NCBI GenBank assembly: GCA_030390025.1
Contig: CM059432.1
Span: forward strand, 50,036,001-50,100,000
DNA length: 64,000 bases
Reading direction: 5' to 3'
Source: Squalus acanthias
Taxonomy: Eukaryota
In this document: piece after piece, positions 760 to 63,395 of the stretch
Layout of the letters: every line of letters starts with the position of its first letter
How positions within the stretch are numbered: the first letter of the stretch is position 1
The notes under the pieces: model-generated
Told to the model about the DNA's origin: nothing
What the model saw: the letters and a program-made list of their open reading frames with translations, nothing else
Databases searched by the model: none
Position numbers and translations under genes: made by a program

Positions 760-1150
760 AGTGTCTGTGCAGGCTTAGCTTTACAACAAAGGTTATTAGA
801 GAGTTATGTGGCATGCACTAAGGTGAGCTGCAGCCAAATTCCACCACAGGCATGATGGTCAAGGTCGCAACCATTTTTAATTTTCCTGCTCAGGATCAAT
901 TCAGGTTACCAGTGGAAATATTAGCAACATAAGCCAGTCAGTTGTCCATAGATGTATAATGCATGTGACCAGTGCCTTATTTTGCTTAAGCAATACATTT
1001 CATCTCCTTCCCCAGCGACAACTGGCAGCATAACAAAAATGTTTTAGAGGTAATGTTAGAGTGATAGGATTCCCACAGGTCCAGGGGAGTATAGGCTGAA
1101 TCATGTGTAGTATAGGTTGAATCATGTGGAGTATAGGTTGAATCATGTGG
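760..1150 (+). pseudogene. Highly decayed Harbinger transposase fragment
   Basis: Manual translation across frameshifts gives CLCRLSFTTKVIRELC...VKVATIFNF.GSIQVTSGNISNISQSVVHRCIMHVTSALF...GFPQVQG, which parallels the intact transposase at 10659-11819. Confidence 0.7.
1087..1149 (+). repeat. 21-bp tandem repeat x3 (GAGTATAGGYTGAATCATGTG)
   Basis: Three adjacent units at 1087-1107, 1108-1128 and 1129-1149. Confidence 0.9.
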
Positions 1151-4714: not shown

Positions 4715-5458
4715 GGCCCAAAAATTAGTCTCACTACGCGAGAGTACGCACTGTGTACTCTCGCGTATTCTGTCTCCAATTGCCGGTTTTCTGCATGCAC
4801 TGCGCATGCGCTGAAAACCGGCACTTGGTGATTTCAAAAGGGGGCGGTTCCTAAGTGAACCGCGTGCGCGCTACAGGCTGCGCGCACGCAGTGCACTTAG
4901 TGCTTTGAACGTGCAGGTAAGCATGGAAGATTTTGCACATAAAGAAAGGAGGCGTAAGACCCTCTTTTAACAAGGTAAGTAGTTAATTAAGTATTATTTT
5001 GAATTTTTTTCAACAGGTATATCTTTTTTAGAGACTTTAAAGAAAGGTAAGTTTATTTTTATAACTTTTAAAAAGATTTTAAATTTTTTCAAAAATTTAA
5101 TTTTTTGTTTAAAGTGGTTAATTTATTTAACTATACTTATTTTATTAATGTGATGGTTTTTAAAAAAATTTAATTGAGGTTTAGCTGTTCTTTTGGGGGG
5201 GTATAGTATTCATAGCTTTCACAGCCCTTGCTGTGAAAACTATGAATGAAAGATGGTGTGCTGCCATTGGCTCTAACTGAATCACGTGATCCCACAGCTC
5301 GCACGAATTAACTGCGTCTGTGGGATACGCACACACTGCACAGCTGCTGTCTAGAAACTCAAGTTCGTGCGAGCTCGGAAGGAAAAGGCAGGCGCGCAGT
5401 GAGATATCGCGGGGAAGCCTTACCCCAGCAGGAAGGCTCCGTCTTTAATTTCTGGGCC
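4715..5458 (-). mobile_element. Harbinger family B MITE (744 bp)
   Basis: TIRs GGCCCAAAAATT / AATTTCTGGGCC; flanks GTT/ATT; inverted homolog of 19144-19887 and 62632-63395. Confidence 0.9.
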
Positions 5459-11819: not shown

Positions 11820-12131
11820 GGCCCCTGCTGTGGAAATGGCTTCTGCCATTGCTAACAACATCAATGAACCCAGCACGCAACCCCTAAGCCGGCCAAGGCA
11901 CCAATGATTCCAAACACCAAACATGTATATTTTGAATACAAAAACTTATTTATTTTACAAACTCTGTGTGTGTCATTTCCTCATGACAAACTCATAGAAA
12001 TAAACACAAAAAAACAGTCATTAACATAACTGGTTCTCACAACCTGGAGATAATGTCCAAAACACTAGACAAAAGTTGGACCACGAACCTCGGCCTTTAA
12101 TAAAAAAATGACCAGCATTTTGTCACACCTC

Positions 12132-19143: not shown

Positions 19144-19887
19144 GGCCCAGAAATTGATCTCGCTCTGTTCCCGCGTGGGTAAGCCTTCCCCGCGATGTCT
19201 CACCTCGCTTATGCTTTTTCTGATCCAGCTCGCACGAAATTGATGTTCCATACATCAGCTGTGCTGGGCTTGCGTATCCCAGCGGCGTAGTTAATTCGTG
19301 CGAGCTGTGGGATCACGTGACTCAGTTAGAGCCAATGGCAGCACACCATCTTCCATTCATAAGTCTCACAGCATGGCTGTGAGACTTATGAATCTTACAC
19401 CCCCCCAAAATAACAGCTAAACCTCAATTAAATTTAAAAAAAAAACCATCACATTAATAAAATAAGTATAGTTAATTAAATTAACCATTTTAAATAAAAA
19501 ATTAAATTTTTGAAAAAATTTAAAATCTTTTAAAAAGTTATAAAAATAAACTTACCTGTCTTTAAAGTCTATAAAAAAGATATACCTGTAAAAAAAAATT
19601 CAAAAAAATACTTAATTCACTACTTACCTTCTTAAAAGCGGGTCTTACTCCTCCTTTTTACATTTCCAAAATCTTCCCTACTTACCTGCGCGTCCAAAGC
19701 ATGAAGTGCACAGCGTGCGCGCAGCCTGTAGCGCGCACGCGATGCACTCAAGCCACGCCCCCTTTTCGGAAGAGCAATTGCCGGTTTTCAGCGCATGCGC
19801 AGGGCATGCAGAAAACCGGCAATTGGAGTGGGAATACGCGAGAGTATGCAGTGCGTACTCTCGCGTCCCGGGATCAATTTTCGGCCC
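19144..19887 (+). mobile_element. Harbinger family B MITE (744 bp)
   Basis: TIRs GGCCCAGAAATT / AATTTTCGGCCC; exact TSD ATT. Confidence 0.93.
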
Positions 19888-23200: not shown

Positions 23201-23478
23201 AACCGCCAAGTTTCACATTCATAGTTCAGAACAGGCGTGCTTCACGTGGAAAAAAGGTTAAAATCACAAAGGCCTTTCAAAATGGCATTATAGAGGCAAT
23301 TTAGGGCTTGTTAAGGGTCTCTTGGAGGCGGGACAGAGTCGGGACCAGCAGACACGATTTAATGAAAATTGCGTGGAGGCGGGATGGAGGCGGGCTTGTG
23401 CCCGCCCGCCAGTTTTTGCAATTTTAACCCCCCACACGCCTCCAAACCCGCCTCCACGGGTCAATGAAAATTCTGCCC
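20287..23478 (+). mobile_element. Harbinger family C element with the transposase core deleted (3192 bp)
   Basis: TIRs GGGCTGGATTTT / AAAATTCTGCCC; exact TSD AAA; Myb gene on +; fused N- and C-terminal transposase remnants on - (~22745-22966). Confidence 0.92.
20566..22500 (+). pseudogene. Harbinger Myb/SANT gene, exons 20566-20805, 21149-21308, 21465-22500, with one frame break near 21630-21660
   Basis: APRFDD...W.QVAEEVNS...RTWLQCRKRFHDL|GT; exon 2 EKRAHNKRERSRTGGG; coiled-coil-like region and RRSTHKRK terminus. Confidence 0.8.
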
Positions 23479-26144: not shown

Positions 26145-28489
26145 ATATTGTTTTATGCCATTTTTCCCCCCTTTCACTTAATTGTTGTATTTAGATTTTG
26201 GTACAGGATTAATAAATGTAATAAATAAGTAACACATCAGATGGTGATTAGGGTGTCGGGCAAATGCAAATACCTTTACAAATCGACTCTACTCGGTCTT
26301 TCGCGCTCCACCCCTTGGGCGCTCCAACTCTTGGTAAATCCTGATGCCCTTTGTTTCTTTTGGTCGCTATTATTCCTATCCTGCCCTATTAGCCTTTGTG
26401 CCCCTGGCTGATCTGACTTCAGGGCGAGCCATGTAAATGCTCAAAATAACCACTCACTACTAGGAACCATGTTCCTGAGTATCTTTAAAAAGCCAAATTT
26501 AAATAGGAACAGGAGTAGGCCAGCAACCGCTCAAGCCTGTTAAAATGCTGATCCTGGGTTCAAATCCCAGCGATGCCATCAACTGGTGCTGGAGACAAAA
26601 GCCAGCATCAGTTAAAGACGCCGCTGAGATTCAATTCCAGATTGCTTGTTTCCAATACAGCCACTAATCCACGATGCCTAAGTTACAGCAGGAGAACCCC
26701 CATGAAATTTCCAGGCCAATGTTTCCAACTAGACCACAAGAAATAATACTGGGGGTTACATAACGTTAACCTAACGTGCCTGGTGTGAAACAGATGCAAT
26801 CGGATCAGTCGCCGTTTTACATTGTGGAAAGTCAAATTGGCGATAGGATGTAAAACAGGCGCCGATCCAAGCCCGCCAATTTCTTGCCGGGTGGATTAGG
26901 TTAAAATGATCCCAATTACTTATCCATGTGAAAAGTTAGTAATTTAAGTAACTCCTATCAATTGTGGCCTGCAATTTTCATTCATTCCAGTATTACCTTC
27001 TAAACGAAAAATTCGATTCACATCAGCACACTTGGTACACCAGAAGTAGATGCCAGCGTGATAAATCGGAATATCTTTGCAGAATTCTTTGTCATTTTTA
27101 TGAAATTGGTTGGTTTTTAAACACTGAGGAATGAAGAATTTGAAAAAGTCCTGATTAGATCAAAACTATTAATAAATAACTGCTTGGCTGTTCATTTCTC
27201 TTCAATTATAGAAACATAAGAACAAATCATAAAGAAGTACTTTAGTTAATTTTCTTGCCTGGGTGATTGTGTGTATAATCCCTGGCATCTGTTATCTCAT
27301 GCTGTAAATTAAATGCATCTTCCATAGATATTGCCAGATGTCAGATATTGCTATCTCAGCAATTAAAAGGACTCCAATTTATGCAGTGTATTGTTTAATC
27401 ATTCTTTCCTCTTTATTGCCGTTGGCTGTTTAAAGTTATTTTGGAATTAATTGATGCTAGAGGGAATAGGGAATTAGGGCTGAGATCGTGATGGATACTA
27501 GCAATCAGAGTTAACAGCAGATGGATGGTGACAGTTTCTGTGTTTTCTGCCTGCTATTAATATTCATGAAAGGCAGAAAGCGGTGGACAAAAAAGAAGTG
27601 GCTCTTGCTTAATAAAGGATAATCCATTAATGGGCTATAAAAGTGGATACATTTGGAAAAGGAAACAGTATAATGTAGTAGGATTTCTTTCATAGAAATT
27701 GTTCAACAAAATAATTCTTTATGGAGCATTAAGATATTTATTGACAATTTTAAGTACTTTCTTTTCTTGAACCGTGTAGGATTATGAGGGGAAAAGAACT
27801 GACAATAAAGGTACTGGCAAAAAGCTTTCTACATTTGGGATTGAAAGAAAAATAAAATTAACAAGCAATTGGGATTTGCAGGAGAGCAACTGAAATGTGC
27901 CTGAAATTATTTTCAGTACAACCATTTCACCACAGTCTCCTGTCGTAATAAAAAATAGAACACCTTGGAAATGTACAGGCTGCTCAGCATCTTCAAGAGA
28001 AACATTGAGATTATTATTGAATGATTTGACAGGACTAACCATGTCTGCAGAACTGGAATACATAGGAGAAAAGGACATGTTCATGATTAGGTGTTTCACA
28101 AAGGAATACTGTGCATAAGTGGGCTAGATGGATAGAAGGTCTTCTCCTGCCTGAAACTGTTATTGCATGTCTATGTTACTATGTTTCGGGTGTCACTCTT
28201 CCTCAGAATTATATTCTCCATTCATCAGCAGTGCATTCTGTATTCATATACAGTATGTACTGTAATTATTTGACACAAACACAGTATGTTCTAAACTACT
28301 TGTAATTGCCATGCCAGACGAAGGTCATTTCCTCCGTGCCAAAAGTAGTGTTTGGCTGTGAGGCAATAATTGGTGTCAATCCACTCAGGCACACTGTAAT
28401 AAAACATGCAATACGCTTAGTTGCGGTGCTTGTTGAAACAAATGAAAAACCATTCATTATACATTTTGAAATAGTGTTATGCTGCTTAA

Positions 28490-39276: not shown

Positions 39277-40880
39277 AGGCTGTGATTTCCCCAACCTGGG
39301 CGGATCCATGGGGGATCGCGGCCTCGCTGCTGGCTCCATCCTGGCCTCCGACATGACTTTCCCCTGATTGGGCTTGTTAAGCCCACCCAGCGAGTTTCCC
39401 GGCCAATTGAAGGAAGCGGGTCTAATGATGTCATTTGATGACGCGTCATCAGCCGGTTTCCTTAAAGGGACCATGCGCAAATTTACTTTGACATTTGTGT
39501 TGTCAGTGTTCGACAACATTGAGGTGCTGCAAACACTGACAAGCAATGCACAGAGGTGCACGGCTGCACCTAGGCTCTCCCATGACTCCCTCCATATGCT
39601 TATGAAGGGGGTCACAGCATGCAGGGAGGTTCTCTTCCCTTCCAATGGGTGGAAGAGACCTCCCCAGGAGACCAACGCAGCCTGGTTGCACATTGCACAG
39701 GAGGGCACAAGCAGGGATGTCGTCAGGAGGACCAGGCTGCAGTGGCGCAAACCTTTCAATTATCTCAGTAGATCACGAAACGTTACTGCAAAGCCACACT
39801 CAACCTCATCCTGCTGTGCCACTCATCACCATCATTCTGCCTTCCCTTCCCTACTCCTGCACATCCTTACTCACACCAACTTACCTTGCACCTCCACCCA
39901 TCCCTCTCTATCTACATTATCACTTCCCCCTCTCATTAGCCACCCCTCACACTCACCCTCATCTTCGTCCAATGATACCAACTAACAACACACAAGGGTA
40001 GGCACTTGTGTGTTTTAGCCAATGTTCATATGAAGTTTCTGCTAATGTGCTGTCAAACATTGAAATCTTTATTTTCAACACTTTCCGTTCTTGGACAGAT
40101 TTGTGTGCACCTTTGGAAGTGGCTTTGTGAGTTGCAGTGAATAGTGAGATATAACGGTACCCCCTGCAATGCGGATGAGTGTGAAAGGAATGGCTTGGGC
40201 ATTGTAGGAATGCTTAATGGTGTTGGTGTGGGGTGGTGCCTGAGAAGGTTGGTGTGGTTGTTGGTGCTGCTCGTGTGCCTGGTGATGCAGCTGATCGTGG
40301 TCAGATTCTGAGGACCAAGGTGAGGGAATATAAACCATACCCATGCTGATGGAATAGATGGCAGGTGAACTTAAGATGACGAAGCAATCTGTCAATGGTG
40401 AGAGAGGTTGTTCCAATGAGGTGACACAGGATGGAGAGTTTGCTCCAAACACTTGCAACCTGCATAAAGCTCAATCTGTCTTCCAAATGCAGTAAGCAAC
40501 AGCTTCTGAGCTTGGAAAGTGAACAGCTGTGAGATCGGAGCTTTTATAGGACATTTCAAGCTGTCAAGTAATGAGATGATTCCATGGCCATTCAACTCCC
40601 GCCCAGCTTAACAGACGTGATCCCTGAGCAGTGTGGACCCCATTGGCAAGCTGGTAAATTCTAAAGGTGAGCTCAAAATTGTTGTTAATCCTCTGTTAAC
40701 AAGGTCATAATGACCTGAATTGCCTCCTCTGCCGCTGCGTGTCGGGTCTGCTCAGTGCTGACAGTCCTGACATTTAGTAAAGGCACGTGGTGGCAGGTTG
40801 ACAGCGGGGTCCCAAAACGCTTTCCCACCCAACCCCTCCACCCATCCCGTCCGCTGACCCCCCGGAAAATTTGTCAACCA
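39277..40880 (+). mobile_element. Decayed non-autonomous Harbinger related to family C
   Basis: Myb exon 1 remnant APRLSHDSL...VLFPSNG...W...RTRLQWRKPFNYL (~39547-39780). Minus-strand MGMVYIPSPWSSESDHDQLHHQ resembles the family C transposase N-terminus. Ends approximate. Confidence 0.7.
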
Positions 40881-41120: not shown

Positions 41121-41311
41121 CTGGAGCTTGTATTTGTCTCATGTGGCAGTGTGCCTTTGCATGGAAATTATTCATCAGCTGTTTCTGTTATGACAGGAAT
41201 ATGTTTACATTAATGCTTAGGAAGGTTCAGTGCAAAATGATTTACCATTATGAGGGTGGTATGGATATTTAGGGCAGATTCTTGGCATTGAAAGCTGTTT
41301 TTTAGCCTTAC

Positions 41312-41520
41312 CTTAGCAACCTTCGTTGGTTCAGCCATCTTCTTCCAGGTCCTCTGGGTCCAGCACACAGAATTTACACGATTGGTAATCTGCTCCCAAG
41401 CTTGCTGAACTATTCTTTTATTTTTTGAAAAGGGGGCCTTTCCATTTAATACAGGACAGCCCTCTTTTTTGTGCACTTTATAAATAAGAACCTTAAGTGC
41501 TTGGCTATCAAAGTATTCTG
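41312..41520 (-). pseudogene. Decayed Harbinger Myb exon 1
   Basis: FDSQALKVLI...QQAWEQITNRVNSVCWTQRTWKK...VAK|GTAAGG. Confidence 0.6.
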
Positions 41521-42339
41521 TAGCAAAATAGTTGAGAAAACCCCTCTCCTCTGTGGACCTGCAAGGGTTTGGATGCTTCTTTAAGTCATTTAACTGCTAC
41601 TCTGCATGGTAATCCTTTCTGATGCACCATTGGCCAGCCTGTCACGCAGACAAGACATCAACATGGTTTCTATTACCTGTGGAGCAAAGAACAGCAATAT
41701 CAAGGGTTAACAGGCAACTGAGACTTCTCCCAATCCACAATCAACACCTGAGTAGAGTGTAACAGCAATTTCTAGGCTCAAATTACTATGCATTAACATA
41801 CACTTAACACATGAATTAACTGTAATACAGAGCGATTTCACTCACTTAGTACTGAATTTCTTGAGTGGATATTTTAAGTAGAAATTGAGATGGAGATGTG
41901 ATGAAGGAAACATCTTTTTACTAGGCGAAGGGTTTTACTATGCAACTTTATCCTATAGTCAGCCAATGGCTCAGTTGGTAGCACCCTTACCTCTGAGTTA
42001 TGAAGGTTGTGGGTTCAAGTCCCACTCCAGAGACTTGAGCACAAAAATCTAGGCTGGTAGTACAGAGGGAGTGCTGCACTGTCGGAGGTGCTGTCTTTTG
42101 GATGAAACATTAAACCGAGGCCCCGTCTGCTCTTTCAGGTGAACGTAAAAGATCCCATATGTAAAGTTTTGCAATTATTGCGATTCAAAATAACAGAAGA
42201 GAAGCAGATTCGTTTGATCAGTTTTATTAAACGAAATGCTGTCCTGATAATAAAGTGGAGATGCCGGCGTTGGACTGGGGTGGACAAAAATGAGAAGTCG
42301 CACAACACCAGGTTATAGTCCAACAGATTTATTTAAAAT

Positions 42340-42375
42340 TACAAGCTTTCGGAGCTGTCGCTCCTTCTTCAGGTA
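42340..42375 (-). ncRNA. Minimal type I hammerhead ribozyme motif
   Basis: Reverse complement of the 44459-44494 motif. Confidence 0.65.
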
Positions 42376-43242
42376 GGGTAGCTGTGAGAGAATCTCCCAG
42401 AATTCACAATATAAGCACAGAAAAAATGTATTCAAATCTTCCCCTACATCAAAGACACACTAAGAGCACAGCCAAGACAATGAGATGTGTCCCAGGGGGT
42501 CCAACGTGTCAAAACACCTGCTGGCTGCATATCCTCTCCATTTGTGTTAGGTTCTTGTGTTAGGTTTTTTTTTGAAAAAAACCTGGAAAGACCGGCCATG
42601 ATGACAAGTCACGTTCTGTATCGTGACATGAACCCGATATCGCGATTGAGGCCATCCTCATGAGTGCGGAACTTGGCTATCAGTTTCTGCTCTATGATTT
42701 TGCGCTGTCGTGTATCCCGAAGGCCGCCCTGGAGAACGCTTACCCGCAGATCCGAGGCTGAATGCCCCTGACTGCTGAAGTGTTCCCCGACTGGGAGGCA
42801 ACCCTCCTGCCTGGCGATTGTTGCGCGGTGTCCGTTCATACGTTGTCTCAGTGTCTGCATGGTCTCGCCGATGTACCATGCTCTGAGGCATCCTTTACTG
42901 CAACGTATCAGGTAGACAACGTTGGCCGAGTCACATGAGTATGTACCATGTACCTGGTGGGTAGTGTCCTCACGTGTGATGATGGTATCTGTGTCCATGA
43001 TCTGGCATGTCTTGCAGAGGTTGTCGTGGCAGGGTTGTGTGGTGTCGTGGTTGCTGTTCTCCTGAAAGATGGGTAATCTGCTGCGAACGATGGTACTTTT
43101 GAGGTTAGGCGGCTGCTTGAAGGCGAGTAGTGGAGGCGTGGGGATGGCCTTAGCAAGGTGTCCAAGAATGAAACCGATTCTGAGGAGTAGTCCATGGTGA
43201 GTTTGATGGTGGGATGGAACCTGTTGATGCTATCGTGTAGTC

Positions 43243-44225
43243 CTACTCCTCAGAATCGGTTTCATTCTTGGACACACGAATCTCCATCAAAGACGGACGC
43301 CTCAGCACTTCACTCTACCGCAAGCCCACGGACAACCTCACGATGCTCCACTTCTCCAGCTTCCACCCTAACCACGTTAAAGAAGCCATCCCCTATGGAC
43401 AAGCCCTGCGAATACACAGGATCTGCTCAGACGAGGAGGAACGCGATGGACACCTACGGACACTGAAAGACGCCCTCGTAAGAACGGGATATGACGCTCG
43501 ACTCGTCGATCGACAGTTCCGACGGGCCACAGCGAAAAACCGCATAGACCTCCTCAGAAGACGAACACGGGACACAACCAACAGAGTACCCTACGTCGTC
43601 CAGTACTTCCCCGGAGCGGTAAAACTACGCCATGTTCTTCGCAGCCTTCAACATGTCATCGATGACGACGAACACCTTGCTAAGGCCATCCCCACGCCTC
43701 CACTACTCGCCTTCAAGCAGCCGCCTAACCTCAAAAGTACCATCGTTCGCAGCAGATTACCCATCTTTCAGGAGAACAGCAACCACGACACCACACAACC
43801 CTGCCACGGCAACCTCTGCAAGACATGCCAGATCATGGACACAGATACCATCATCACACGTGAGGACACTACCCACCAGGTACATGGTACATACTCATGT
43901 GACTCGGCCAACGTTGTCTACCTGATACATTGCAGTAAAGGATGCCCCAGAGCATGGTACATCGGCGAGACCATGCAGACACTGAGACAACGTATGAACG
44001 GACACCGCGCAACAATCGCCAGGCAGGAGGGTTGCCTCCCAGTCGGGGAACACTTCAGCAGTCAGGGGCATTCAGCCTCGGATCTGCAGGTAAGCGTTCT
44101 CCAAGGCGGCCTTCGGGATACATGACAGCGCAAAATCATAGAGCAGAAACTGATAGCCAAGTTCCGCACTCATGAGGATGGCCTCAATCGCGATATCGGG
44201 TTCATGTCACGATACAGAACGTGAC
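43243..44225 (+). pseudogene. Penelope-like ORF C-terminus (RT thumb/linker + GIY-YIG endonuclease)
   Basis: SFLDT..., LYRKPT, SFHP, NVVYLIHC...YIGET..TLRQRMNGHR. Premature TGA at 44123-44125 where the inverted arm has CGA. Confidence 0.9.
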
Positions 44226-44458
44226 TTGACATCATGGCCGGTCTTTCCAGGTTTTTTTCAACAAAAAAAACTAACACAAGAACCTAACACAAATGGAGAG
44301 GATATGCAGCCAGCAGGTGTTTTGACACGTTGGACCCCCTGGGACACATCTCATTGTCTTGGCTGTGCTCTTAGTGTGTCTTTGATGTAGGGAAAGATTT
44401 GAATACATTTTTTCTGTGCTTATATTGTGAATTCTGGGAGATTCTCTCACAGCTACCC

Positions 44459-44494
44459 TACCTGAAGAAGGAGCGACAGCTCCGAAAGCTTGTA
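44459..44494 (+). ncRNA. Minimal type I hammerhead ribozyme motif
   Basis: TAC-CTGAAGA-A-GGAGC(GACA)GCTCC-GAA-AGCT-T-GTA: catalytic core boxes, stem II, palindromic stem III, short stem I. Confidence 0.65.
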
Positions 44495-47493
44495 ATTTTA
44501 AATAAATCTGTTGGACTATAACCTGGTGTTGTGCGACTTCTGATAATAAAGGACACAGAAGCCTGTAAAATGGCTGCCGCGCATCGTGGCAGAAGCTTCC
44601 AGAAGCACAGTGGGCAGACAAGATGGCGTCGAATATACATTCAGTATAAGATTGGATCATACTCGGTAAACATTGATAAAGACAGGATGCAACCCGTTTG
44701 CATTTTAAACAATAGCAATGATATAAGTGCAGGAATCGTTTTCCTATGCACTGTAAGGATCATTGTACTAGGCAATCGAAGGCCCATCCAGACACATCAA
44801 TACACAAATACCCCCCCGGCTCTACAATGAGAGAGACATTGACGGGTGATTAAGTCGGTATTCGGGGGGCCCCAAAACCAGTCAAGGAGATGATTCATAC
44901 ACATCCTGGCTGGGTCAACAATGGGGAAAACATTAACGGATAGTTGGCCAGTTTCAGGTGCTACCGAAACCCGTTAAAGAAGATAATCGCCCCATGCTGG
45001 GAGTTTTGAGCGCCAATATTACACAAAGGACAAACATTAAGATTTGAGCGGGAGATAAGTGGACACAGCACTATAACTATAGAGAACAAATGTCCATCGG
45101 TCTCTTATCTCTCTGCGGACCCTTGCTGAAGCTTTTCCTTGGGGCTGGACTTTTGTGTTTCTCTGGACTTTGTTGACTCTTGAATCTTAGCCGTACTGGT
45201 CGGTTATTCAAGTGTTGGGTGGAGCTCAATCGGTACGAGCCTGCCCCGACAAGGGCAAGTAACAGGGTGCACCATCCCGAGTGTCGGTAAACGGTGTCTG
45301 GACCCGGAGGCCCGAGGAGACGAGATGAGAAGACGACGAGAAGAAGACGAGAAGAAGTTCCACGTGCCGCCATGGTCAGTGAACCCCGACCGCGCCTGAA
45401 AAATATAAATACAGGACTCTTCTTTGAGTTCTACCGACTACAACCTGTGTCGAACACAGGAAGACTCTTCTTTGAATTGTATCCGAGTTCCGTCGAGTTC
45501 TTCATGACAACAGGGAGACTGGCCTGCTTTTCGCAGCACCGAAAGTAAACAAGTGGGGTGCAGAGACCCTTCCAAACACGTGACAGTCAGGCGCTGCAGC
45601 GAAACGAGCTGAGTGCCTCACTTTAAAAAACTCTGAAGTAACACGAGTGGTGAGCATGTTTTCCGATCCTACAAATCCAGACGTAGTGTAGGTATTGTTA
45701 AGGGAGGGTGGTTTTAATAAGGTTAAGATATAATGCGTTCCCCTTTTTACGATGTGCCGTGTGTTCTCCATTTCCATAGACCAAGCTTTATGAATGTATG
45801 TATACTTGTACTATCTTTGATTTGCGCCTATGACATGTATTTCATGATTTTAGACGCCATGCAATAAAGATTTCCATTTCGTACTATTCATCCAGGTCGA
45901 TTTGAGTTTTTCTCTGCATTACTGCTCCCTGCATCTAAGTCCAGTGTTAGAACCATAAGGGCGAGTGGGTCGAACCACTCACAGGTGCTTATTGCAAAAA
46001 GGCTGGCCGGAGACCAGAGCAAGCAATAGTATAGGCAACGAAGGCCTAACCTCGCACCAGCACCGTCTGAGACACGCCCCCTTACACATAGCACTATTTC
46101 GAAGAAGAGCAGGGGACCCTGGTGTCCTGGCCAATATTTATCCTTCAATCAACACAACAAAAAACTGATTATCTGGTCATTATCACATTGCTGTTTGAGG
46201 GAGTTTGCTGAGCGCAAATTGGCTGTAAAGCGCTTTGCACGTCCGGTGGTCGTGAAAGGCACTATATAAATGCAAGTCTTTCTTTCTCTTCTATAATGTG
46301 AAAAGCTAGCAGAATAACATCCAAGAATGTTACATTTAAATGAGACACAGGAGAAGAGAGCCAGTTTGACATGTTCAAAAAAATGTGAACAGATCCTTGA
46401 TTCACCAGGATAGTAAAGAGATAAGGGCCTTACCAGCAAAAGTAAGTAATGCATGGATCAAAATGTAGGAAACAGAACATAAAAATGTCAACAAAAAAAC
46501 ACGGCAAGCTCCAAGAGACCCCAGTTTGCCCACTTTTTATAGGCAAATTTATGCTGTGGGTGGAGCCTCACCTGACATCTGAAAATCCCATGAGACTATT
46601 ATTACCATTACCTCATTTAAATAAAATTAGGAGGCCTGTGCATGTCCAAAATGCACCCAAAAAGGTGCTCAGAAAATCATGCATGGAATACAACAAGTCC
46701 TGCATGTTGGACAGTGGTGGGTGTTGGACAGCAGACTGTAGGAATTGTTGCTATCATGTCAGATATTGGTTGAGGGGCTGGTGAAGCAGTAGACATGCTA
46801 GTGCCAAATGTAAGACCTCCTCTGCAGTCCAAAAGTGACAATTGGGATACAATGATAAAAGTTTATAATAGATGCTGGCAATAATATCTTGACGCTCAAG
46901 ACCCAACACCATCCTGGTATCTATTCTGCCCCTTACTGGTGATTATTATCAGGTTTAACTGACTATAAATTTAGATTTACATTTGGATGATATGTTAGCC
47001 TAATTGTGCAAGTACACTTATTTCTAAAGGGATTTCATATTTTATAGATTGAAACACAGATCTGCTGCAATTCCATATTTGCAATTAATATTTTAATGGC
47101 TCCGTGCCCTACATCTGCTACTTTCTTTGGCAGTACAGAGCACCATTTATGCTGTTCAATAAATATGATAATTATATGTCCTTTTGGCACACTTTAGTGC
47201 CAACACACTAGAAATTTGTCCATGTGGAAGTGAGTTATTTTTGAAAAGTCTACACTTCAAGGAAGCAAATTGGGGTCAGAAGGTTAAACACAGGCAAGAC
47301 ACATTACAGCCCCCGCCACTCACACCGTCACCACTTACACCGTCCACACTTACCACGGGCAGTGCCAATATCAAGCAAATAGCGCTACCATTTGCCAGAA
47401 CCATAAGAGACAATTAAAAGCCACTGCTTATAACATATTAAGCGCGCCAGCTATTTCAGGCAGTTCTTCACACCTCACTAAAGAAGGAAATAG

Positions 47494-54656: not shown

Positions 54657-56651
54657 GAGGTGCCAGAGGACTGGAGGGTAGCTAACGTAGTACCATTATT
54701 CAAGAAGGGTAGTAGGGATAAACCAGGGAATTACAGGCCAGTGAGCCTAACATCAGTGGTAGGGAAATTATTGGAAAAAATTCTGAGGGACAGAATTAGT
54801 CTCCACTTGGAGAGGCAAGGATTAATCAAGGATAGTCAGCATGGCTTTGTCCGGGGGAGATCATGTCTGACCAATTTGATTGAATTTTTCGAGGGGGTGA
54901 CTAGGTGTGTGGATGAGGGTAGTGCAGTTGATGTAGTCTACATGGACTTCAGTAAGGCTTTTGACAAAGTCCCGCATGGGAGACTGGTCAAGAAGGTAAG
55001 AGCCCATGGGACCCAGGGCAATTTGGCACATTGGATCCAAAATTGGCTTAGTGGCAGGAGGCAGAGGGTGCTGGTCGAAGGCTGTTTTTGTGACTGGAAG
55101 CCTGTACCGTACCGCAGGGATCGGTGCTGGGTCCTTTGCTGTTTGTAGTGTTCATTAATGATTTAGATATGAATGTAGGAGGTATGATCAGTAAGTTTGC
55201 AGATGACACGAAAATTGGTGGAGTAGTAAATAGCGAGGAGGGAAGCCTCAGGCTACAGGACGATATAGTTGGGTTGGTTAGATGGGCAGGACAGTGGCAA
55301 ATGGAATTTAACCCTGAAAAGTGTGAGGTGATGCATTTTGGGAGGACTAACAAGGCAAGGGAATACACAATGAATGGTAGGACCCTAGGAAGGACAGAGG
55401 ATCAGAGGGACCTTGGTGTGCATGTACATAGATCCCTGAAGGCAGCAGGACAGGTAGATAAGGTGGTTAAGAAGGCATATGGGATACTTGCCTTCATTAG
55501 CCGAGGCATAGAATATAAGAGCAGGGAGGTTATGATGGAGCTGTACAAAACACTAGTTAGGCCACAGCTGGAATACTGTGTGCAGTTCTGGTCGCCACAC
55601 TATAGGAAGGATGTGATTGCATTGGAGAGGGTGCAGAGGAGATTCACCAGGATGTTACCTGGGCTGGAGCGCTTCAGCTATGAAGAGAGACTGGACAGGC
55701 TGGGGTTGTTTTCATTAGAGCAGAGAAGGCTGAGGGGGGACCTGATTGAGGTGTACAAAATTATGAGGGGCATAGATAGGATAGATAGAAAGGAACTTTT
55801 CCCCTTAGTAGAGGGGTCAATAATCAGGGAGCATAGTTTCAAGTTAAGTGGCAGGAGGTTTAGAGGGGATTTGAGGAAAAACTTTTTCACCCAGAGGGTG
55901 ATTGGAATCTGGAACTCACTGCCTGAAAGGGTGGTAGAGGCAGGAACCCTCACAACATTCAAGAAGCATTTAGATGAGCACTTGAAACGCCATAGCATAC
56001 AAGGCTACGGACCAAGTGCTGGAAAATGGGATTAGAATAGACAGGGCTTGATGGCCGGCGCGGACACGATGGGCCGAAGGGCCTCTTTCTGTGCTGTATA
56101 ACTCTATGACTCTATGCTGACTGCTCAAAGTCATTAATACAACTGTTTATTTCTACTTACTAAGTGGTATCCCATCCACTAATGTGAGAAATTGTAGGGA
56201 AAAATAGTTTATAGAAGAAAATTTAAAACAAGAAACATCATTGCGTTTGTATATTGGAACAGAGATTGCACATTCCAAAAGAACCTTTAAATTGTGAAAT
56301 ATGAAGGGGAATAGGAGCCTGATTACTTTAACCCTACTTTTTATTGGCCTCTATTTGGCCCCCTTTTAGCCAAAATGCACTTAAGCTATGGACTTTTCAT
56401 TGGTCTCTATAAACCAGGACCACCTTTGTGGAACCCTTTTTGATCCTGTCAGTTAAGCATGTAAGAAGAGGCTCCCTTGATGGCCCAGGTGGTTAAGGCA
56501 GTAAGTAGCTGATGCATACAAATTATGATGGTCCAGGTCAGATCACAGGAAGAATGGCCACTTTGATGAGATACCTGAGAGAGACCTGTGGAACCGTATC
56601 TCATGATACAGGAATGCAGCAGGGGAGGAGGAAATCAGCAGTAAAAAAAAT

Positions 56652-57075
56652 ATAGGATATAGGAACATAGGAACAGGAGTAGGCCATTCAGCCCCTCAAG
56701 CCTGTTCAGTCATTCAATGAGATCATGGCTGATCTGCGACCTAACTCTATATACCTGCTTTTGCCCCATAACCCTTAACACCTTTAGTTAACAAAAATCT
56801 ATTAATCTCAGATTTAGAATTAGCAATTGATCTACCATTAATTGTCGTTTGCAGAAGAGAGTTCCACCCTTTGTGTGTAGAAGTGTTTCCTAATTTCACT
56901 CCTGAAAGGTCTGGCTCTAATTTTTAGACTATGCCCCCTCGTCCTAGACTCACGAACCAGCGGAAATAGTTTCTCTTTATCGACCTTATCTGTTCCCCTT
57001 AATATCTTGAAAACTTTGATCAAATTACCCCTTAACCTTCTAAATTCCAGGGAATACGACCCTAGTTTGTGTAAT
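56652..57075 (-). mobile_element. CR1 3' fragment
   Basis: LIKVFKILRG...KLFP...TRGHSLK...FYTQRV; CCTATGTT-type tail. Confidence 0.85.
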
Positions 57076-57564
57076 AAAAGGGGGAAAAAGTAATGGCCCA
57101 GAAATTAGACTCGGAGGCTTGCCGCGGGGGTAAGGATCCCGCGCGATATTACATACCGCGTCTGCCGTTCTTCATTTCCCCCACATGAACTTTGTTTTTT
57201 CTGAGCAGCACTCCAGGGCAGCGTCTGACATCACACCGCCCTGGAGCGCAGCGTGCGCGTTTCCTCCCGTGCGGTGGGCAGTGAAGACACGCCCTGGAAG
57301 GTCGCATTAGCATAGGCCACGCCCCCAATTTTTTAAAACTCCTGGCAACTTTGTAAACAGCAGCACAGGGATTTCTAGCGACGCTGGACCTTGCTATTAA
57401 AGTAAGTTGTATTTAAATGCATGTTTTGCAAACTTTTGAAGACTTTTACATGAATTGGAATAATTTTAAACAGTTGTAAAGAGATTTGAAGTAATTTAAA
57501 TAGTTTTAAAAGTCCTGAAATCATTTTTTTCATTCATTTTACTTTATTTAATCAGGAAAGTGAA

Positions 57565-59186
57565 ATGGCTGCAATGAGCACAATTCAAATTATCAAAAGA
57601 ACTCAAAGTTTCAGTGACGATGATCTCAGCACACTCCTCGATGAGGTTGAGGCGAAGCGCGTGTGGATAATTGGAACTGAGAAGTCCAAAGCCCCACGAA
57701 AAGGCCAAATGTTAGCTTGGAAAAAGGTTGCGCAGGTTGTAAGCGTGAACTCCACCATTCCACGGACAGCAGAACAATGCCGCAAGAAATTCAGTGATTT
57801 ATTGCGAACTCTCAAGGTTTGTATAGTTATTACAAAAGTCAACTGTAAAATGTCTTTAAATTTAACTGAACTACTTTTAAAAATATATATGTATGTGTTT
57901 GTTTACTCAAGTGAGTTAACTGCAGTCACAAGATGCTGCCATAAATTTTTATGGCTTTTGGGGCCAGCTCAGGGTCATCCATTGTGCTCTTATCTTGATT
58001 CCACTGCTTTGAGTTGTTTAGTGAGTTAACTGTGTGTGTCCCAATGCACTTTGGGTGTAAAAACCTTACATTTCATGACATTTCATATTTTCTGTTTTCA
58101 TTTTAGACTAAAACTGCTCACAACGCCAGAGAACGTGCACTGACAGGCGGTGGTGTTGTCACGTTAAGGGCTTTAACTGAACATGAGGAAAGGCTCGAGC
58201 ATCTATTTGGATTTCTTAGCGGCTGCCCCTTTGAAGCTGAACCAACCGACACAGGTATGCATAACCGTGATTTGCTCTGGCCAGCTAATGTTTAAAAATG
58301 TTGGATGTGTGTTGAATATCAGCTTCTGTGATGTGGCACATCATGCTTTACCGTTGCTAATCTTTACTGTTTCCTTTCCATAGGTTTACAGCAGACTTCT
58401 CACACGCGGGATGAGCAGTGCGTTGAGTCTGCAGCCACAGAGGGCTTTGGGGAAGGGCTTGTTGAGGCAATGGGAGCTGCGAGTGAGGTGGTGGTGGTGG
58501 AGGAGCAGGAGCAAATTGTTGATGTATTGGAAGTGGAGGGTCTGGAATCTCCATCTCCTGGCCCCTCTGGCTCTGTGCCAGACAGACACCAGCTTGATAC
58601 TGCAGTGCATGTGGGAGAAGCAGATATACATGCAACAGAACAGGAGTTACAAGGTCAGATCCACCATCTTGAAGGGTTGAGGCAATCGATGTGTTCTCTT
58701 ACAGAGAAACAAGTTGACTGTCTTGCCTCAATCAGGCAGGGAATGGATTCTATGTGCATGTCACTTAATCAAATGAATGAGTCTCTCATTGGACTCTTTC
58801 AGAAACCAAATGTGGGAATGGAGCTTCATCAAATAAATGAGTCTCTCATTGGACTCTTGCAGAAACCAGATTTGGGAATGGAGCTTCATAAAATAAATGA
58901 GTCTCTCGTTGGACTCTTGCATATGCTTCAACCACCTTCTGCTGCCATTACTGTGACTCCTGCAGAACCGCCCTTACCTGCTCCCAGCGCAGAAACAGTG
59001 CAGGTCCAAGAGCCAGCTGCTCCGCCAGTTGTGATGCAAGCAAACATTGCCTTGCAGCAGCAGCAGCAGCAGCAGCAACCCTGTCAGGAGGCAATTGCTG
59101 AAGGGCAAGAGATGGCAAACAGGGCCCTTTCAAGTCGCAGCACAGGGCTCCGGTCACGGGGAGCGGGAAAGCGCAGTAGACGGTAG
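57565..59186 (+). CDS. Harbinger Myb/SANT-like protein, exons 57565-57816, 58107-58254, 58384-59186, ~400 aa
   Basis: FSDDDLSTLLDEV...W..VA..VS...RTAEQCRKKFSDL|GT; exon 2 TKTAHNARERALTGGG; in-frame joins without stops; probable 5'UTR intron 57402-57555. Confidence 0.87.
58767..58922 (+). repeat. In-frame 60-bp (20-aa) tandem repeat, ~2.5 copies
   Basis: NESLIGLFQKPNVGMELHQI / NESLIGLLQKPDLGMELHKI / NESLVGLL. Confidence 0.9.
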
Positions 59187-59725
59187 GGTGTCACCTTTTC
59201 CACAATGCACATCCATTGACCCTCAGGCATAGATGCGAGGGGGTAAATCGTTCAATTGTTTAATTTTTCATTTTATTTAAAAGTTAAATGTTTTCATTGT
59301 TTTTTTTATTGAAATATATATTTGTCACTGAAAGTGTATGTAACCTTTTCATTGAAAAAGTACAGCCTCTAGTCACTTTGAAAAAATTCAAATTGTTTAT
59401 TTGCAAAAATAATTTAACATTAAAACTGTTTTACATTTAGGAAATAGTTATTTTCCATCTTGAATGTCTTTATTGCAGTAACAAACCAAAAAAGTCACTG
59501 TAAACTGTTTACAAATTTTATTCTAACCTATTTATGTTTACGAATGTTTGAAAAGCTGAAAATAGCTAGTTAACATTGAAAAGTTATAAACTATGTACAT
59601 CAACACTGAACCTCAGAAGTCTTTAATGCTGCAATAAAAGAGCACTGTTTCACTTTAAATTGTGTCTGTTCCTTTCTTTGCCTTGCTGGGGGAGGGGGAG
59701 GGGGAGGGGGAGGTACAAGGCGACA

Positions 59726-60874
59726 CTACCTCGTGAAGGTGTTGGCTACCAGCTGCTCCCGAACAGCCTTACATTGATCAGCACTTGGCTCGTCCACATC
59801 ACGCCTTCCCACAGGCACATTGGCATCGTCCACGTCCTCCATTTCAGCAGGTAGTTCCTCTGCAGCGTTAAGGGTCAGTCCTTCCCGCAGGGCAAAGTTA
59901 TGCAAAGCACAACAGGCCACCACAATCTTTGCCACTTTCAGAGGAGAATACTGCAACGTCCCCCCTGACCTGTCCAGGCACCGGAAGTGTGATTTCAGAA
60001 CTCCGATTGTCCTCTCCACCACTTGCCGTGTGGACACGTGTGCCTGGTTGTATCTCTCCTGAGCCTCATTATTGGTCTTGCGGTAGGGAGTCATCAGCCA
60101 TGGTCTTAGCGGGTAGCCCTTGTCGCCCAATATCCATGCGGATCCTGGAGGCAATGCGTTGAGGGCGCCATATAAGTTCGAGTTACGGAGGACGAAGGAG
60201 TCATGATTACTTCCCCGGTTACTTGCATTCACATTTAGGATCCTGAGGTGCACATCACAGACAATCAGGACATTCAATGAATGAAACCCCTTCCTGTTGA
60301 TGAATGTCACAGGTGCATCCACTGGTGCCTTCAATGCAACATGGGTTCCATCGACGGCCCCAATCACTTTGGGGAATCCAGCAATGTTATGAAATGCAAG
60401 GGCCATCTCCTTTTGATGGCGAGCGGACAAGTCATAGTTAATGAACTCTGAAGCCCTACGGAAAATGGCTTCTGTGACCTGGTGAATGCAGGCCCTCGCA
60501 GCATTCTTGGATATGTTGGTAATGTCACCGGTGCTTGCCTGAAATGACCCACTTGCAAAGAAGTTCAGTGCTGTGGTTACCTTCATGCTCACTGACAATG
60601 CAGTGCGGGTCTTCGAGCGTGTTTGAAGGTCCTCCTTTAACATGTCACAGAGTCGGCCGATTGACTCTTTACTGAAGCGCAGCCTCCTCACACACAACTC
60701 CTCCGACAGCATCTCAAATGACAGCCTCTCCCTGTACACTCTATGGGGTGGGTAGTAGTTTCTCCTTCTCAGGAGGAGACGGTTTTGGTTCCTCCGTCTG
60801 TCTTGTCGCCTGGCGTCTAAAATTCTCTGATACAAAATCCCACAGAGGAACAGGACTTGATTCTCAAAGGGCAT
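59726..60874 (-). CDS. Harbinger DDE transposase, 382 aa, intact
   Basis: GAVDGTHV, NRKGFHSLNV, GSNHDSF, LGDKGYP, VVERTIGVLKSHFRCL, CCALHN. Confidence 0.95.
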   Translation of the reverse strand: MPFENQVLFLCGILYQRILDARRQDRRRNQNRLLLRRRNYYPPHRVYRERLSFEMLSEELCVRRLRFSKESIGRLCDMLKEDLQTRSKTRTALSVSMKVTTALNFFASGSFQASTGDITNISKNAARACIHQVTEAIFRRASEFINYDLSARHQKEMALAFHNIAGFPKVIGAVDGTHVALKAPVDAPVTFINRKGFHSLNVLIVCDVHLRILNVNASNRGSNHDSFVLRNSNLYGALNALPPGSAWILGDKGYPLRPWLMTPYRKTNNEAQERYNQAHVSTRQVVERTIGVLKSHFRCLDRSGGTLQYSPLKVAKIVVACCALHNFALREGLTLNAAEELPAEMEDVDDANVPVGRRDVDEPSADQCKAVREQLVANTFTR

Positions 60875-61076
60875 CTTTCTCCCTCACAGGCTTCCTCTTT
60901 AAACAGAAAGTTGTAAGGAAAAAATGGAAAGAGTTGTTAAAGTAACTTTAATAAAGTGAGTGGCTATAAAATCAGGTCGGGCTATGGTGGGAAACGTGCG
61001 GTATCGGATTGGGAACACGTCTACCCGCCTCACGGCCCGAGATGATTTTCTAGAACTGTAACATTTTCAGAAAGTC

Positions 61077-61120
61077 ATACATACATACATACATACATAC
61101 ATACATACATACATACATAC
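61077..61120. repeat. (ATAC)n microsatellite
   Basis: Directly visible, upstream of the family B transposase. Confidence 0.95.
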
Positions 61121-62631
61121 TTACTTACTTAAAGGAATATAATTGATGATCATTTTCTTTTTTTAAACTTTTTGAAATGTAAATAGTTCATTTTTAAACA
61201 GTCATTTTCACATTTAAGACAGAAACCTAATTCAATAGGCCTTGTACACACCCACAGTTGCTAGACTACTCCAAATGGTCAAAACCCGTTTTAAAACTTT
61301 TTTTAAAATTGTAAACTTACCTCAGACTTAATTAAATAAACTTTGCTGCCTTTCAGATTTAAAAATGCTCACTTTAGTAGCCCCACTGCTGAAAGGTTTC
61401 TTCCTCCTGCTGGCTCCGAAGCTTTCCAAGATGGTTTACTCTTGCTTTTTACAAGTGTAATTGCTGCGAGCTTACACACACTCCAACCATTGATAAAAAA
61501 AGCCAAGTTCATTGCGCACACGCAGACTCTCCGGTGCACGCGATTCAACGAACATACCTTTACTTGAAGCCACCAGAAGTGCCAGTTTCCCGCGCATGCG
61601 CAGTGCATGCAGGAAACCGGCACTTCGGGAACGAATACGGGTGAGTACGCAGCGGGTACTCTCCCGTATTCGGCCGAATTTTTGGGCCAATATATATTTT
61701 TCTTAGGAGCAGTCAAAGGCATTTAGGCCCAACAAGCCCATGCTTTTTAATAGATTAACCTCATCTACCTCCTTATCATATTCCTCAATCCTGACTCACT
61801 GCAGAATTATATCTAATTGACTCTTAAACTCATTTGTACTGTCCATTTCAATGAAGTTGACTGGAGAAATGAGGGCTTTGACCCGTTAACGTGATAGAAA
61901 TTAAGCTCGATGGCTTTCAGACAAGTATGATGGTGTTTCTACCAGGAAAACATAATGCCAGGAAACAACCATGAACACATTCCTGAGGTAACCAGACAGA
62001 TTGCAAGGGGCTGAAATTTCACAGGGTTTCTGCCAATCTCCCACCATAACTCCAGCAGGAGACCTGTGGAACCCCCAGGGAAATGGCAGAGACCCTGTTT
62101 ACAGCAGGTCTCCATCAGTTACGGGACTTTCCTTGTTGCCTTGTAAGGGGTGGAACTTCCATGCACCCCTTACAAGACAAATGACGGGCAGGGGTGGGGC
62201 TGGAGATGGGGACTCCTTTCACCGGGCGTTTTACTCCTGATCCATAGTCAGGACTTGGCATTTCTGTGGCAGGTGGTATACCCAGTGAGAGGTGCTGGCT
62301 AGGCAAGAATCAAAAACAATTTTTGGGAGAAATTTTATCCAGATTGATGCCATTTGGTCTAATGTTAAAAAGGATATTTTAATCTCGGTGTGGATATGGT
62401 ATGCCACATAAGCACGGAATCATACAGGTCAATACCTGCTACCAAAGTTTTAATAATGTCTTTATTTTACACAATCATCTGTGCCAGCTTTATTCTAAGG
62501 GGAATGATGCATGAAAGAATTGCACTAGGGAAACCAATGTTGCCCTTTGCAGGTTTACCGTGGTCTATGATACCCGTGTGCTAACCATGGACAGAAGCAG
62601 AGCACAGATGCAATGAAACTCGATATACATT

Positions 62632-63395
62632 GGCCCAGAAATTCGCGTGTCCGGCTTGCCGCGGGGGTAAGGATCGCGCGCGCTCTTACCTACCGCGCCT
62701 GCCGTTGTGTTTTGGGCCCACGGGAACTTCGGGTCCTGGGCCTCTCCCAACTGCCGGCGCGCAGTGCTTGTGTGTTCCAGGGGCGTAGTTAGTGCGATGC
62801 GACCCCTGGGATCACGTGGGCCATGGAGAGCCAATGGCAGCAGACCATCTTTCATTCATAGATTTGACAGGAGACCTGTCAAATCTGTAAATTGAAATCG
62901 GCCCCAAAAGAACAGCTAAACTTAAAATAAATTTAAAAAAAAACCATCACATTTATAAAATAACTATAGTTAAATAAATTAACCACTTTAAACAAAAATT
63001 TAAATTTTTGAAAAAATTAAAATACTTTTTAAAAGTTATAAAAATAAACTTACCTTTCTTTAAAGTATCTAAAAAAGATAAACCTGTTGAAAAAAATTTA
63101 AAATTATACTTAATTAACCACTTACCTTGTTCAAAAGGGGTCGTACGCCTCCTTTTTATTAGCGTAGTATCTTCAATACTTACCCTCGCGTAGAAACCTG
63201 AAAAAAAATCTAAGTGTGCTGCGTGCGCGCGGCCTCTAGCGCGCACGCAGTTCACCTAGGAACTGCCCCCTTCACCATACCGGAAGTTCCGGTTTCCCGC
63301 GCATGCGCAGTGCATGCAGGAAACCGGCACTTCGGGAAGCAATACGGATGAGTACACACTGTGTACTCACGCGGGAAGGGCCGAATTTTTGGGCC
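62632..63395 (+). mobile_element. Harbinger family B MITE (764 bp)
   Basis: TIRs GGCCCAGAAATT / AATTTTTGGGCC; exact TSD ATT; both ends match 57095-61688. Confidence 0.95.

What the first reader, a model, noticed from the sequence alone, without database searches (positions are those of the whole stretch)
57095..61688. Second intact autonomous Harbinger with an atypical AWT target duplication
Seen: open 382-aa transposase, spliced ~400-aa Myb gene, GGCCC-starting TIRs, TSD AAT; its MITEs show ATT, ATT and GTT/ATT, whereas families A and C show TAA, CAA and AAA. Known: PIF/Harbinger usually duplicates TWA (CWG for Harbinger3_DR); ANT is reported for the related Pangu group. Inference: a distinct, possibly active lineage with shifted target specificity.
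Basis: partly seen in the sequence, partly recalled or inferred. Interest (0 to 1): 0.7.

Follow-up and report, generated by a model that had tools for sequence, protein, structure and literature searches.

The report
Shark Harbinger transposon with AWT targets
This is a real, complete two-gene cut-and-paste transposon from an old shark lineage that appears to land on AAT/ATT rather than on the triplets used by its neighbours; that is a modest new variant of a known family, and nothing here shows that this copy still jumps.

Summary
Observation confirmed. 57095-61688 is a complete Harbinger-type element: 12-bp GGCCC TIRs, AAT duplication, open 382-aa DDE transposase and a three-exon, 400-aa Myb/SANT gene. 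Three related MITEs show ATT/ATT, ATT/ATT and AAT/AAC. Four other Harbinger-type elements here show TAA, TAA, CAA and AAA; a fifth is mismatched (TAT/ATA).

The transposase is Harbinger3_DR-like (Nuwa clade), not Pangu. It sits in a 100/100 elasmobranch clade that has lost the conserved proline of the PGSxHD motif. AWT thus looks like an independent shift within an old shark lineage.

AWT is already published for 9 Pangu families, one of them Myb-bearing, and for PIF/Harbinger MITEs. It is new only for this clade, within my searches.

Activity is unproven. The copy carries near-private changes (6 of 8 coding ones non-synonymous, 3 CpG-type) and two departures from conserved residues. Its insertion junction recurs in two public samples. 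The MITE ends are only 63-85% like its own.

No genome was available, so AWT rests on 4 local elements. Verdict: new variant of a known kind, interest 0.35.

The parts
57092..57094 (.). left target-site duplication, AAT
57095..57106 (+). left TIR, 12 bp, starts GGCCC
   Evidence: same register as the 12-bp TIRs of families A and C
57116..57138 (+). 23-bp left subterminal block identical to MITE 62653-62675, at the same offset from the end; candidate Myb-binding region (inferred)
57565..57816 (+). Myb/SANT gene exon 1 (Myb_DNA-bind_5)
   Evidence: phase-0 donor at the same codon in families A and C; an RNA?-run contig ends at 57816
58107..58254 (+). Myb gene exon 2
   Evidence: homologous exon in families A and C
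58384..59186 (+). Myb gene exon 3, with a 60-bp triplication (58753-58932) and a poly-Q run; ends at the stop
   Evidence: an RNA?-run contig of a diverged copy joins 58242 to 58382
59726..60874 (-). 382-aa DDE transposase: D175, D251, E287; R283 and K294 present; NRGS at 219-222 in place of (W/Y/F)PGS; K123 and H296 depart from conserved Q and R
60897..61320 (-). possible intron in the 5' UTR of the transposase gene (donor motif at 61315-61323; acceptor-like tract before the ATG); inferred from motifs only
   Evidence: no junction seen
61585..61631 (+). 47-bp right subterminal block identical to MITE 63292-63338; candidate Myb-binding region (inferred)
61677..61688 (-). right TIR, 12 bp
61689..61691 (.). 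right target-site duplication, AAT
62632..63395 (+). related MITE, 764 bp, ATT/ATT; the one closest to the autonomous element (78% left, 85% right)
19144..19887 (+). related MITE, 744 bp, ATT/ATT
4715..5458 (-). related MITE, 744 bp, AAT/AAC in element orientation (GTT/ATT on +)

Best explanation
A full-length copy of a multi-copy, old elasmobranch Harbinger family of the Harbinger3_DR (Nuwa) clade. It most likely works like Harbinger3_DR. The Myb protein binds subterminal blocks and brings the DDE transposase to the ends; the element is cut out and inserted with a 3-nt stagger. The family keeps the Y|NNN|R flank preference of its neighbours but favours AWT as the duplicated triplet (site Y|AWT|A), a shift that arose separately from Pangu. 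GGCCC-ended MITEs are or were moved in trans by this family or by close subfamilies. This copy is a settled insertion that has begun to drift; it may or may not still encode working proteins. Shown: anatomy, local duplications, clade. Inferred: two-protein mechanism (by homology), cross-mobilisation of the MITEs, genome-wide AWT bias, age.
For: Anatomy. AWT in 4 of 4 GGCCC elements (3 perfect duplications) against 0 of 5 other Harbinger-type elements; base -1 is a pyrimidine in 4 of 4 and base +1 is A in 4 of 4, against G in 4 of 5 others. The TIR register GG-NNN-R-R-A-W-T-T is shared with families A and C, which fixes the boundary at G. Tree of 60 proteins: clade of 12 rows at 100/100, all named members elasmobranch; a profile search found no clade member outside elasmobranchs among 8000 candidates scored. 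By-eye count on the 92 DDE-block positions printed in Han et al. 2015 Fig. S3: 50 identical to Harbinger3_DR, 45 to NuwaII-4_XTro, 42 to Pangu_CGig, 23 to Pangu_HVul (4 of the 34 printed rows counted). Multi-copy: summed contig depth over the element is thousands against about 7-50 on the unique flank in X1 and X3 (the tool warns this is no copy number). Drift: of 40 difference rows shown (594 hidden), 12 are sites where at least 90% of depth in both DNA runs of organism A differs from this copy. Eight of these are coding: 6 non-synonymous, 2 synonymous, 3 of them CpG transitions. Shared insertion: contigs in X1 and X3 run from 20 bases inside the right end into the same flank (4 differences in 987, 3 in 546).
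Against: Only 4 elements define AWT, and one is imperfect. No genome was held, and the loose ends at the termini were not among the rows shown. The three MITEs are 75-85% alike and 63-85% like the element's ends, so their duplications may come from sister transposases. The junction contigs hold only 20 bases of the element, below the tool's 31-base bridging standard, and one run may be the window's own source. The difference table is a best-supported subset, so no divergence or age can be computed. The intron-2 contig has one base more than this copy's model. No solved Harbinger structure exists to place the target contacts. The tree holds no labelled PHIS reference sequence.
Confidence: 0.72

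Rival explanations
1. This copy, or near-identical sisters, is a currently active autonomous element that still mobilises the 62632-63395 MITE family.
For: Both frames are open and the catalytic triad is intact. The model is confident, pLDDT 91. Contigs of a guessed-RNA run cover both genes; the best piece has 2 differences in 210 bases. The MITEs keep CpG o/e of 1.0-1.2, and 47-bp and 23-bp subterminal blocks are identical between element and MITE.
Against: K123 replaces a Q found in 9 of 9 other clade rows; H296 replaces an R found in 70 of 88 rows. Near-private changes run 6 non-synonymous to 2 synonymous, with CpG decay. The element and MITE junctions recur in both public samples of organism A, and no empty-site joint is among the 15 of 81 joints shown. 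The family is present in a genome skim of another organism with a similar identity profile (X7).
Confidence: 0.15
2. The true duplication is 1 bp (W) and the element ends are T-GGCCC...GGGCC-A. AWT would then be part element, part target.
For: All four elements have T before and A after the GGCCC ends. The GTT/ATT flanks of MITE 4715-5458 need no mutation under this reading. Empty sites with an A-W-T centre cannot tell the two readings apart.
Against: The 12-bp TIR lines up base for base with families A and C only if it starts at G. The published Nuwa and PIF/Harbinger groups make 3-bp duplications, and Nuwa TIRs start with GG. One A-to-G transition explains the odd flank in a MITE that is 15-22% diverged from its kin.
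Confidence: 0.06
3. There is no special AWT preference: the family has a looser target (ANT, or any AT-rich triplet inside Y..R flanks), and four AWT sites are a small-sample effect.
For: n = 4. The neighbouring families are themselves variable (TAA, CAA, AAA, TAT/ATA).
Against: 4 of 4 at a background of 0.056; none of 5 GGG-ended elements shows AWT. A broader ANT preference remains open: 4 of 4 W has p of about 0.1 if the middle base is free.
Confidence: 0.12
4. The element is a vertebrate member of the Pangu group, as its duplication suggests.
For: AWT/ANT defines Pangu. Pangu_CGig has AWT, a Myb ORF and an N before PGS.
Against: The DDE blocks match Harbinger3_DR (50 of 92) better than Pangu_CGig (42) or core Pangu (23) (by eye). 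The element is nested among shark Harbingers, one of which (family A) duplicates TAA. Its ORF2 is Myb_DNA-bind_5, as in NuwaI, whereas 32 of 34 Pangu rows list no ORF2 domain.
Confidence: 0.04

Closest known systems
Harbinger3_DR of zebrafish (= NuwaI-2_DRer in Han et al. 2015, PMC4482050; main text parts 1-2 of 4, supplement 1 parts 2-3 of 7 and supplement 2 read)
   Same: Two genes (DDE_Tnp_4 transposase and Myb_DNA-bind_5 protein), 12-bp TIR, about 4.2-4.6 kb, 3-bp duplication; 50 of 92 DDE-block residues identical by eye, with the same 23-residue spacer.
   Different: Duplicates AWT, not CWG; TIR starts GGC, not GGG; NRGS replaces WPGS; shark lineage.
NuwaII group (C|TNA|G targets; PMC4482050)
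   Same: Same transposase clade and Myb partner; TIRs start GG; pyrimidine and purine flank the triplet. The window's families A and C resemble this group.
   Different: Central triplet AWT with A at +1, not TNA with G.
Pangu group, especially Pangu_CGig (= Harbinger-3_CGi; PMC4482050 Table S3)
   Same: AWT duplication; Pangu_CGig also has a Myb ORF and a similar-looking transposase (42 of 92).
   Different: Core Pangu transposases are distant (23 of 92 for Pangu_HVul); most Pangu list no Myb domain; the paper lists no vertebrate host.
PIF/Harbinger MITEs of Helicoverpa (PMC9033116, passages and Table 1 read)
   Same: Table 1 gives the PIF/Harbinger duplication as 'TWA, AT or AWT'.
   Different: Insect MITEs classed by duplication only; no transposase link is shown in the passages read.
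Elasmobranch proteins annotated 'putative nuclease HARBI1'
   Same: Same clade: Pristiophorus 68-69%, Carcharodon 64%, Scyliorhinus 62%, Heptranchias 61%; the proline of PGS is lost in all that span the motif.
   Different: Annotated only as HARBI1-like proteins. Several look domesticated (first catalytic D lost); no ends or duplications could be fetched for them.

Membership tests
PHIS / Harbinger superfamily (broad) | DDE transposase of the DDE_Tnp_4 type with D-D-E and R(3)E | tested here: met
   E 9e-41; D175, D251, R283, E287
PHIS / Harbinger superfamily (broad) | second gene with a Myb/SANT domain | tested here: met
   Myb_DNA-bind_5, E 8e-12
PHIS / Harbinger superfamily (broad) | short TIRs starting with G or A, and a 3-bp duplication | tested here: met
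PHIS / Harbinger superfamily (broad) | both proteins needed for transposition; Myb protein binds the ends | not testable with these tools
   known for Harbinger3_DR from passages of PMC2836001 and PMC9710019
PIF/Harbinger group in the narrow sense (Han et al. 2015) | TWA duplication | tested here: not met
   AAT, ATT, ATT, AAT/AAC
NuwaI (Harbinger3_DR) | CWG duplication | tested here: not met
NuwaI (Harbinger3_DR) | TIR usually starts GGG | tested here: not met
   starts GGC
NuwaI/II clade | transposase falls in the Nuwa clade | tested here: inconclusive
   best by-eye match is Harbinger3_DR among 4 printed rows counted; the tree had no labelled PHIS reference
NuwaII | C|TNA|G target | tested here: not met
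   Y|AWT|A in 4 of 4
Pangu | ANT (often AWT) duplication | tested here: met
   4 local elements
Pangu | second ORF without a known domain (most families) | tested here: not met
   Myb_DNA-bind_5 present; 2 of 34 Pangu rows are exceptions with a Myb domain
Pangu | transposase in the Pangu clade | tested here: not met
   23 of 92 to Pangu_HVul against 50 of 92 to Harbinger3_DR, by eye; nested among shark Harbingers
Active autonomous element | open frames and intact catalytic residues | tested here: met
   but K123 and H296 depart from conserved residues
Active autonomous element | near-identical copies, polymorphic insertions or transposition in an assay | tested here: inconclusive
   junction shared by two samples, no empty-site joint among the rows shown; no genome held

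The most novel reading that the evidence does not exclude
An elasmobranch-wide Nuwa-clade lineage switched its duplicated triplet to AWT when the loop after strand 3 of the catalytic core changed from (W/Y/F)PGS to N/H-R-GS. The shark genome would then hold natural transposase pairs (families A and B, 56% identical) that differ in target triplet, with working B-type copies. That would allow the target-reading residues of Harbinger transposases to be mapped directly.
Probability: 0.15. Interest if true: 0.65.

Novelty: new variant of a known kind. Interest (0 to 1): 0.35.

Why it matters
The PHIS groups are defined largely by their duplication (TWA, CWG, TNA, ANT). A Nuwa-clade transposase with a Pangu-type duplication shows that the triplet can shift within one clade and is an unsafe classifier. 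It also bears on a small open point: Harbingers were reported absent from elephant shark, with a call to check other cartilaginous fish (PMC9179366, passages read), and this window holds at least three families. No Harbinger transposase structure is solved, so a close natural pair with different triplets would be a handy way to find the target-reading residues.

Tried and rejected
The whole genome was not held, so no genome-wide logo, copy number or empty-site search could be made. A 22-base subterminal pattern gave 1 match in metagenome contigs, 0 in viral contigs and 1 in prokaryote genomes. The metagenome match is limited to 25-26 bases and the genome match lies in a Chitinophaga assembly; both were dropped as chance.

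Laying 4 of 20 listed runs: the loose ends at the termini were not among the 24 shown (1882 hidden), so no further duplications were read. No listed holder is on record as RNA; X10 is a guess. Low X10 cover over 60928-61369 is not used as evidence. An explicit 57816/58107 joint was not among the rows shown.

A search for longer proteins holding Myb exon 1 found none among 65 candidates (weak evidence). The single-sequence fold failed (pLDDT 36). PDB by sequence gave no real match; by fold, only weak generic DDE matches, best piggyBac at E 0.007.

I first read NRGS as a lesion of this copy and rejected that: it is a clade trait. Two lone GGCC ends with AAT beside them (374; 26717) were not counted. 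Neither has a partner end, and the decayed transposase behind 374 matches family A (40%) better than B (34%). The MITE core does not align to the element's 60880-61560 or 59190-59720 above block shuffles; it does score above shuffles against 57200-57565, unexplained.

My recollection that some Drosophila PIF-like elements duplicate AWT was not confirmed (one unrelated paper listed). Paper searches for a shark or vertebrate Harbinger with AWT listed none. Repbase, Dfam and most subscription papers could not be searched. Earlier-findings look-ups by sequence and by 'AWT' were empty.
Full report
What is there. The finding describes a 4594-bp element at 57095-61688. Both ends carry a 12-bp inverted repeat that starts GGCCC (11 of 12 matching), and AAT lies on both sides. 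The minus strand holds an open 382-aa transposase (60874-59726; DDE_Tnp_4, E 9e-41), and the plus strand a Myb/SANT gene facing it. The proposed splice model is the only one of 24 junction combinations tried that is GT-AG at both introns and open, giving 400 aa. Intron 1 lies at the same codon and phase in the Myb genes of the window's families A and C, which supports it independently. In a run guessed to be RNA, one contig ends exactly at 57816 and another spans the intron from 57787 to 58134, the pattern expected at a splice branch. A third joins the end of exon 2 to the intron-2 acceptor in a diverged copy that has one base more than this copy's model. These are hints from contigs, not junction reads.

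The duplication. Four GGCCC-ended elements lie in the window. In element orientation their flanks are AAT/AAT, ATT/ATT, ATT/ATT and AAT/AAC. Five other Harbinger-type elements show TAA/TAA, TAA/TAA, CAA/CAA, AAA/AAA and TAT/ATA. AWT is 0.056 of local trinucleotides, so 4 of 4 is about 1e-5 uncorrected. The base before the triplet is a pyrimidine in 4 of 4, and the base after it is A in 4 of 4, against G in 4 of the 5 others. Because A and T are fixed, a 1-bp duplication with T...A ends fits the flanks equally well, and fits the odd MITE better. I set it aside because the TIR aligns with those of families A and C only when it starts at G. The genome was not held and the read laying did not show the terminal loose ends, so the claim rests on these four elements.

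The lineage. The best protein hits are chondrichthyan 'HARBI1' annotations, up to 69% identical, so the host is very likely a shark. I built a tree from 58 of the 120 listed hits plus the window's two transposases, keeping the top-scoring hits and a spread of distant ones. The element falls in a 12-row clade at 100/100; family A falls in another clade. Named members come from sawshark, sevengill shark, white shark, catshark, whale shark and sawfish. The clade's first branch is a protein at least 90% conserved across skates, rays and sharks that lacks the first catalytic aspartate. It looks domesticated, which would date the lineage to before the shark-ray split (inference). A profile search added no member outside elasmobranchs among the 8000 candidates scored. 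In the 90-row alignment, position 220 is proline in 55 of 78 other rows with a residue and in 0 of 8 clade rows (R 4, A 2, K 1, C 1); C61, R127 and D148 are further clade traits. In the model (pLDDT 91) residues 219-222 end the third core strand. From memory, the matching loop of retroviral integrases touches target DNA; I did not test this, and no Harbinger structure is solved.

Comparison with print. Han et al. 2015 (PMC4482050; main text parts 1-2 of 4, supplement 1 parts 2-3 of 7, supplement 2 whole, and a term search of all three supplements) give TWA for PIF/Harbinger, CWG for NuwaI (which includes Harbinger3_DR), C|TNA|G for NuwaII and ANT for Pangu. All 9 'AWT' occurrences in supplement 1 are Pangu rows; one, Pangu_CGig (= Harbinger-3_CGi), has a Myb ORF. 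PMC9033116 (passages, Table 1) lists 'TWA, AT or AWT' for PIF/Harbinger MITEs. Counting by eye on the 92 positions of the printed DDE blocks, the element matches Harbinger3_DR at 50, NuwaII-4_XTro at 45, Pangu_CGig at 42 and Pangu_HVul at 23 (4 of 34 rows counted). It therefore works like a Nuwa-clade Harbinger but fails the duplication test of both NuwaI and NuwaII. It shares the duplication of Pangu without its transposase. PMC9179366 (passages) reports Harbingers absent from elephant shark and asks for other cartilaginous fish to be checked. PMC2836001 and PMC9710019 (passages) give the two-protein mechanism and the extended target preference. PMC4122938 and PMC8437027 (passages) added nothing on AWT. 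Eight searches listed no vertebrate Harbinger with AWT. Repbase, Dfam, subscription papers and bioRxiv supplements were out of reach and may hold such a family.

Is it active? Twenty runs from up to seven coded organisms hold 0.09-0.42 of its sampled words; I laid four. Summed depth over the element is in the thousands and over the MITE near a million, against about 7-50 on the unique flank in X1 and X3. This shows many copies but gives no count. Of 40 difference rows shown, I examined 21. At 12 of them at least 90% of depth in both DNA runs of organism A differs from this copy; 8 are coding, 6 non-synonymous and 2 synonymous, and 3 are CpG transitions. That is the pattern of neutral drift after insertion, on small and selected numbers. 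K123 replaces a glutamine kept in 9 of 9 other clade rows, and H296 replaces an arginine kept in 70 of 88 rows; whether these are private is not known. Contigs from both samples of organism A run from 20 bases inside the right end into the same flank, and others reach the MITE junctions, so neither insertion looks private to one haplotype. One run could, however, be the window's own source. In favour of activity: open frames, an intact triad, family contigs in a guessed-RNA run (best 2 differences in 210) and MITEs with little CpG loss. The MITEs share 23-bp and 47-bp blocks exactly with the element in one case, but their ends are 63-85% identical overall, so mobilisation by this very copy is an inference.

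Verdict. The element is a complete copy of an old, abundant elasmobranch Harbinger lineage with a locally consistent AWT target. AWT is known in the superfamily but, within my searches, not in this clade or in vertebrates. New variant of a known kind; interest 0.35.

Noticed in passing
proteins P0007, P0008, P0124-P0138 (not in the window): A HARBI1-like protein at least 90% conserved across skates, rays and sharks (cluster of 25), with the first catalytic D replaced by G, is sister to the element's clade: a probable domesticated gene. P0005 and P0139 (white shark, whale shark) also lack that D and may be a second one.
   Followed up: partly
window 10146-14364: Family A Harbinger, TAA/TAA, open 386-aa transposase (10659-11816, +) with YPGS, Myb gene on the minus strand with intron 1 at the same codon.
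   Followed up: partly
window 20287-23478 and 1558-2236: Family C element with a Myb gene but no transposase match (AAA/AAA), and its short derivative, whose flanks are inverted rather than direct (TAT/ATA); unexplained.
   Followed up: partly
window 63048-63128, 19550-19688, 4972-5052: Each GGCCC MITE carries two or three perfect splice-donor motifs on the strand that bears the transposase gene in the autonomous element, which has donor motifs at 61315 and 61553.
   Followed up: partly
window 58753-58932 and 59059-59079: Three tandem 60-bp repeats and a CAG run inside Myb exon 3, both in frame.
   Followed up: no
window 374-1096: Lone GGCC end preceded by AAT, followed by a decayed Harbinger transposase (702-1096) closer to family A than to B; no partner end found.
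   Followed up: partly
window 26706-26717 and 62007-62019: Lone TIR-like ends of another related type (one followed by AAT); no partner ends found.
   Followed up: partly
window 42290-44544: Long inverted repeats (597 bp at 99%, 292 bp at 98%) around ORFs that look, from recall, like a Penelope-type reverse-transcriptase tail and GIY-YIG nuclease; not tested.
   Followed up: no
window 56500-57075: A very high-copy repeat ends at 57075, 17 bases before the left duplication; contigs in all four runs continue there into other sequence, so it is a truncated repeat next to the insertion site.
   Followed up: no
window 39368-39985 and 41210-41596: Further Myb-like remnants; the second hits Myb_DNA-bind_5 at E 8e-6, the first gave no Pfam hit.
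   Followed up: no
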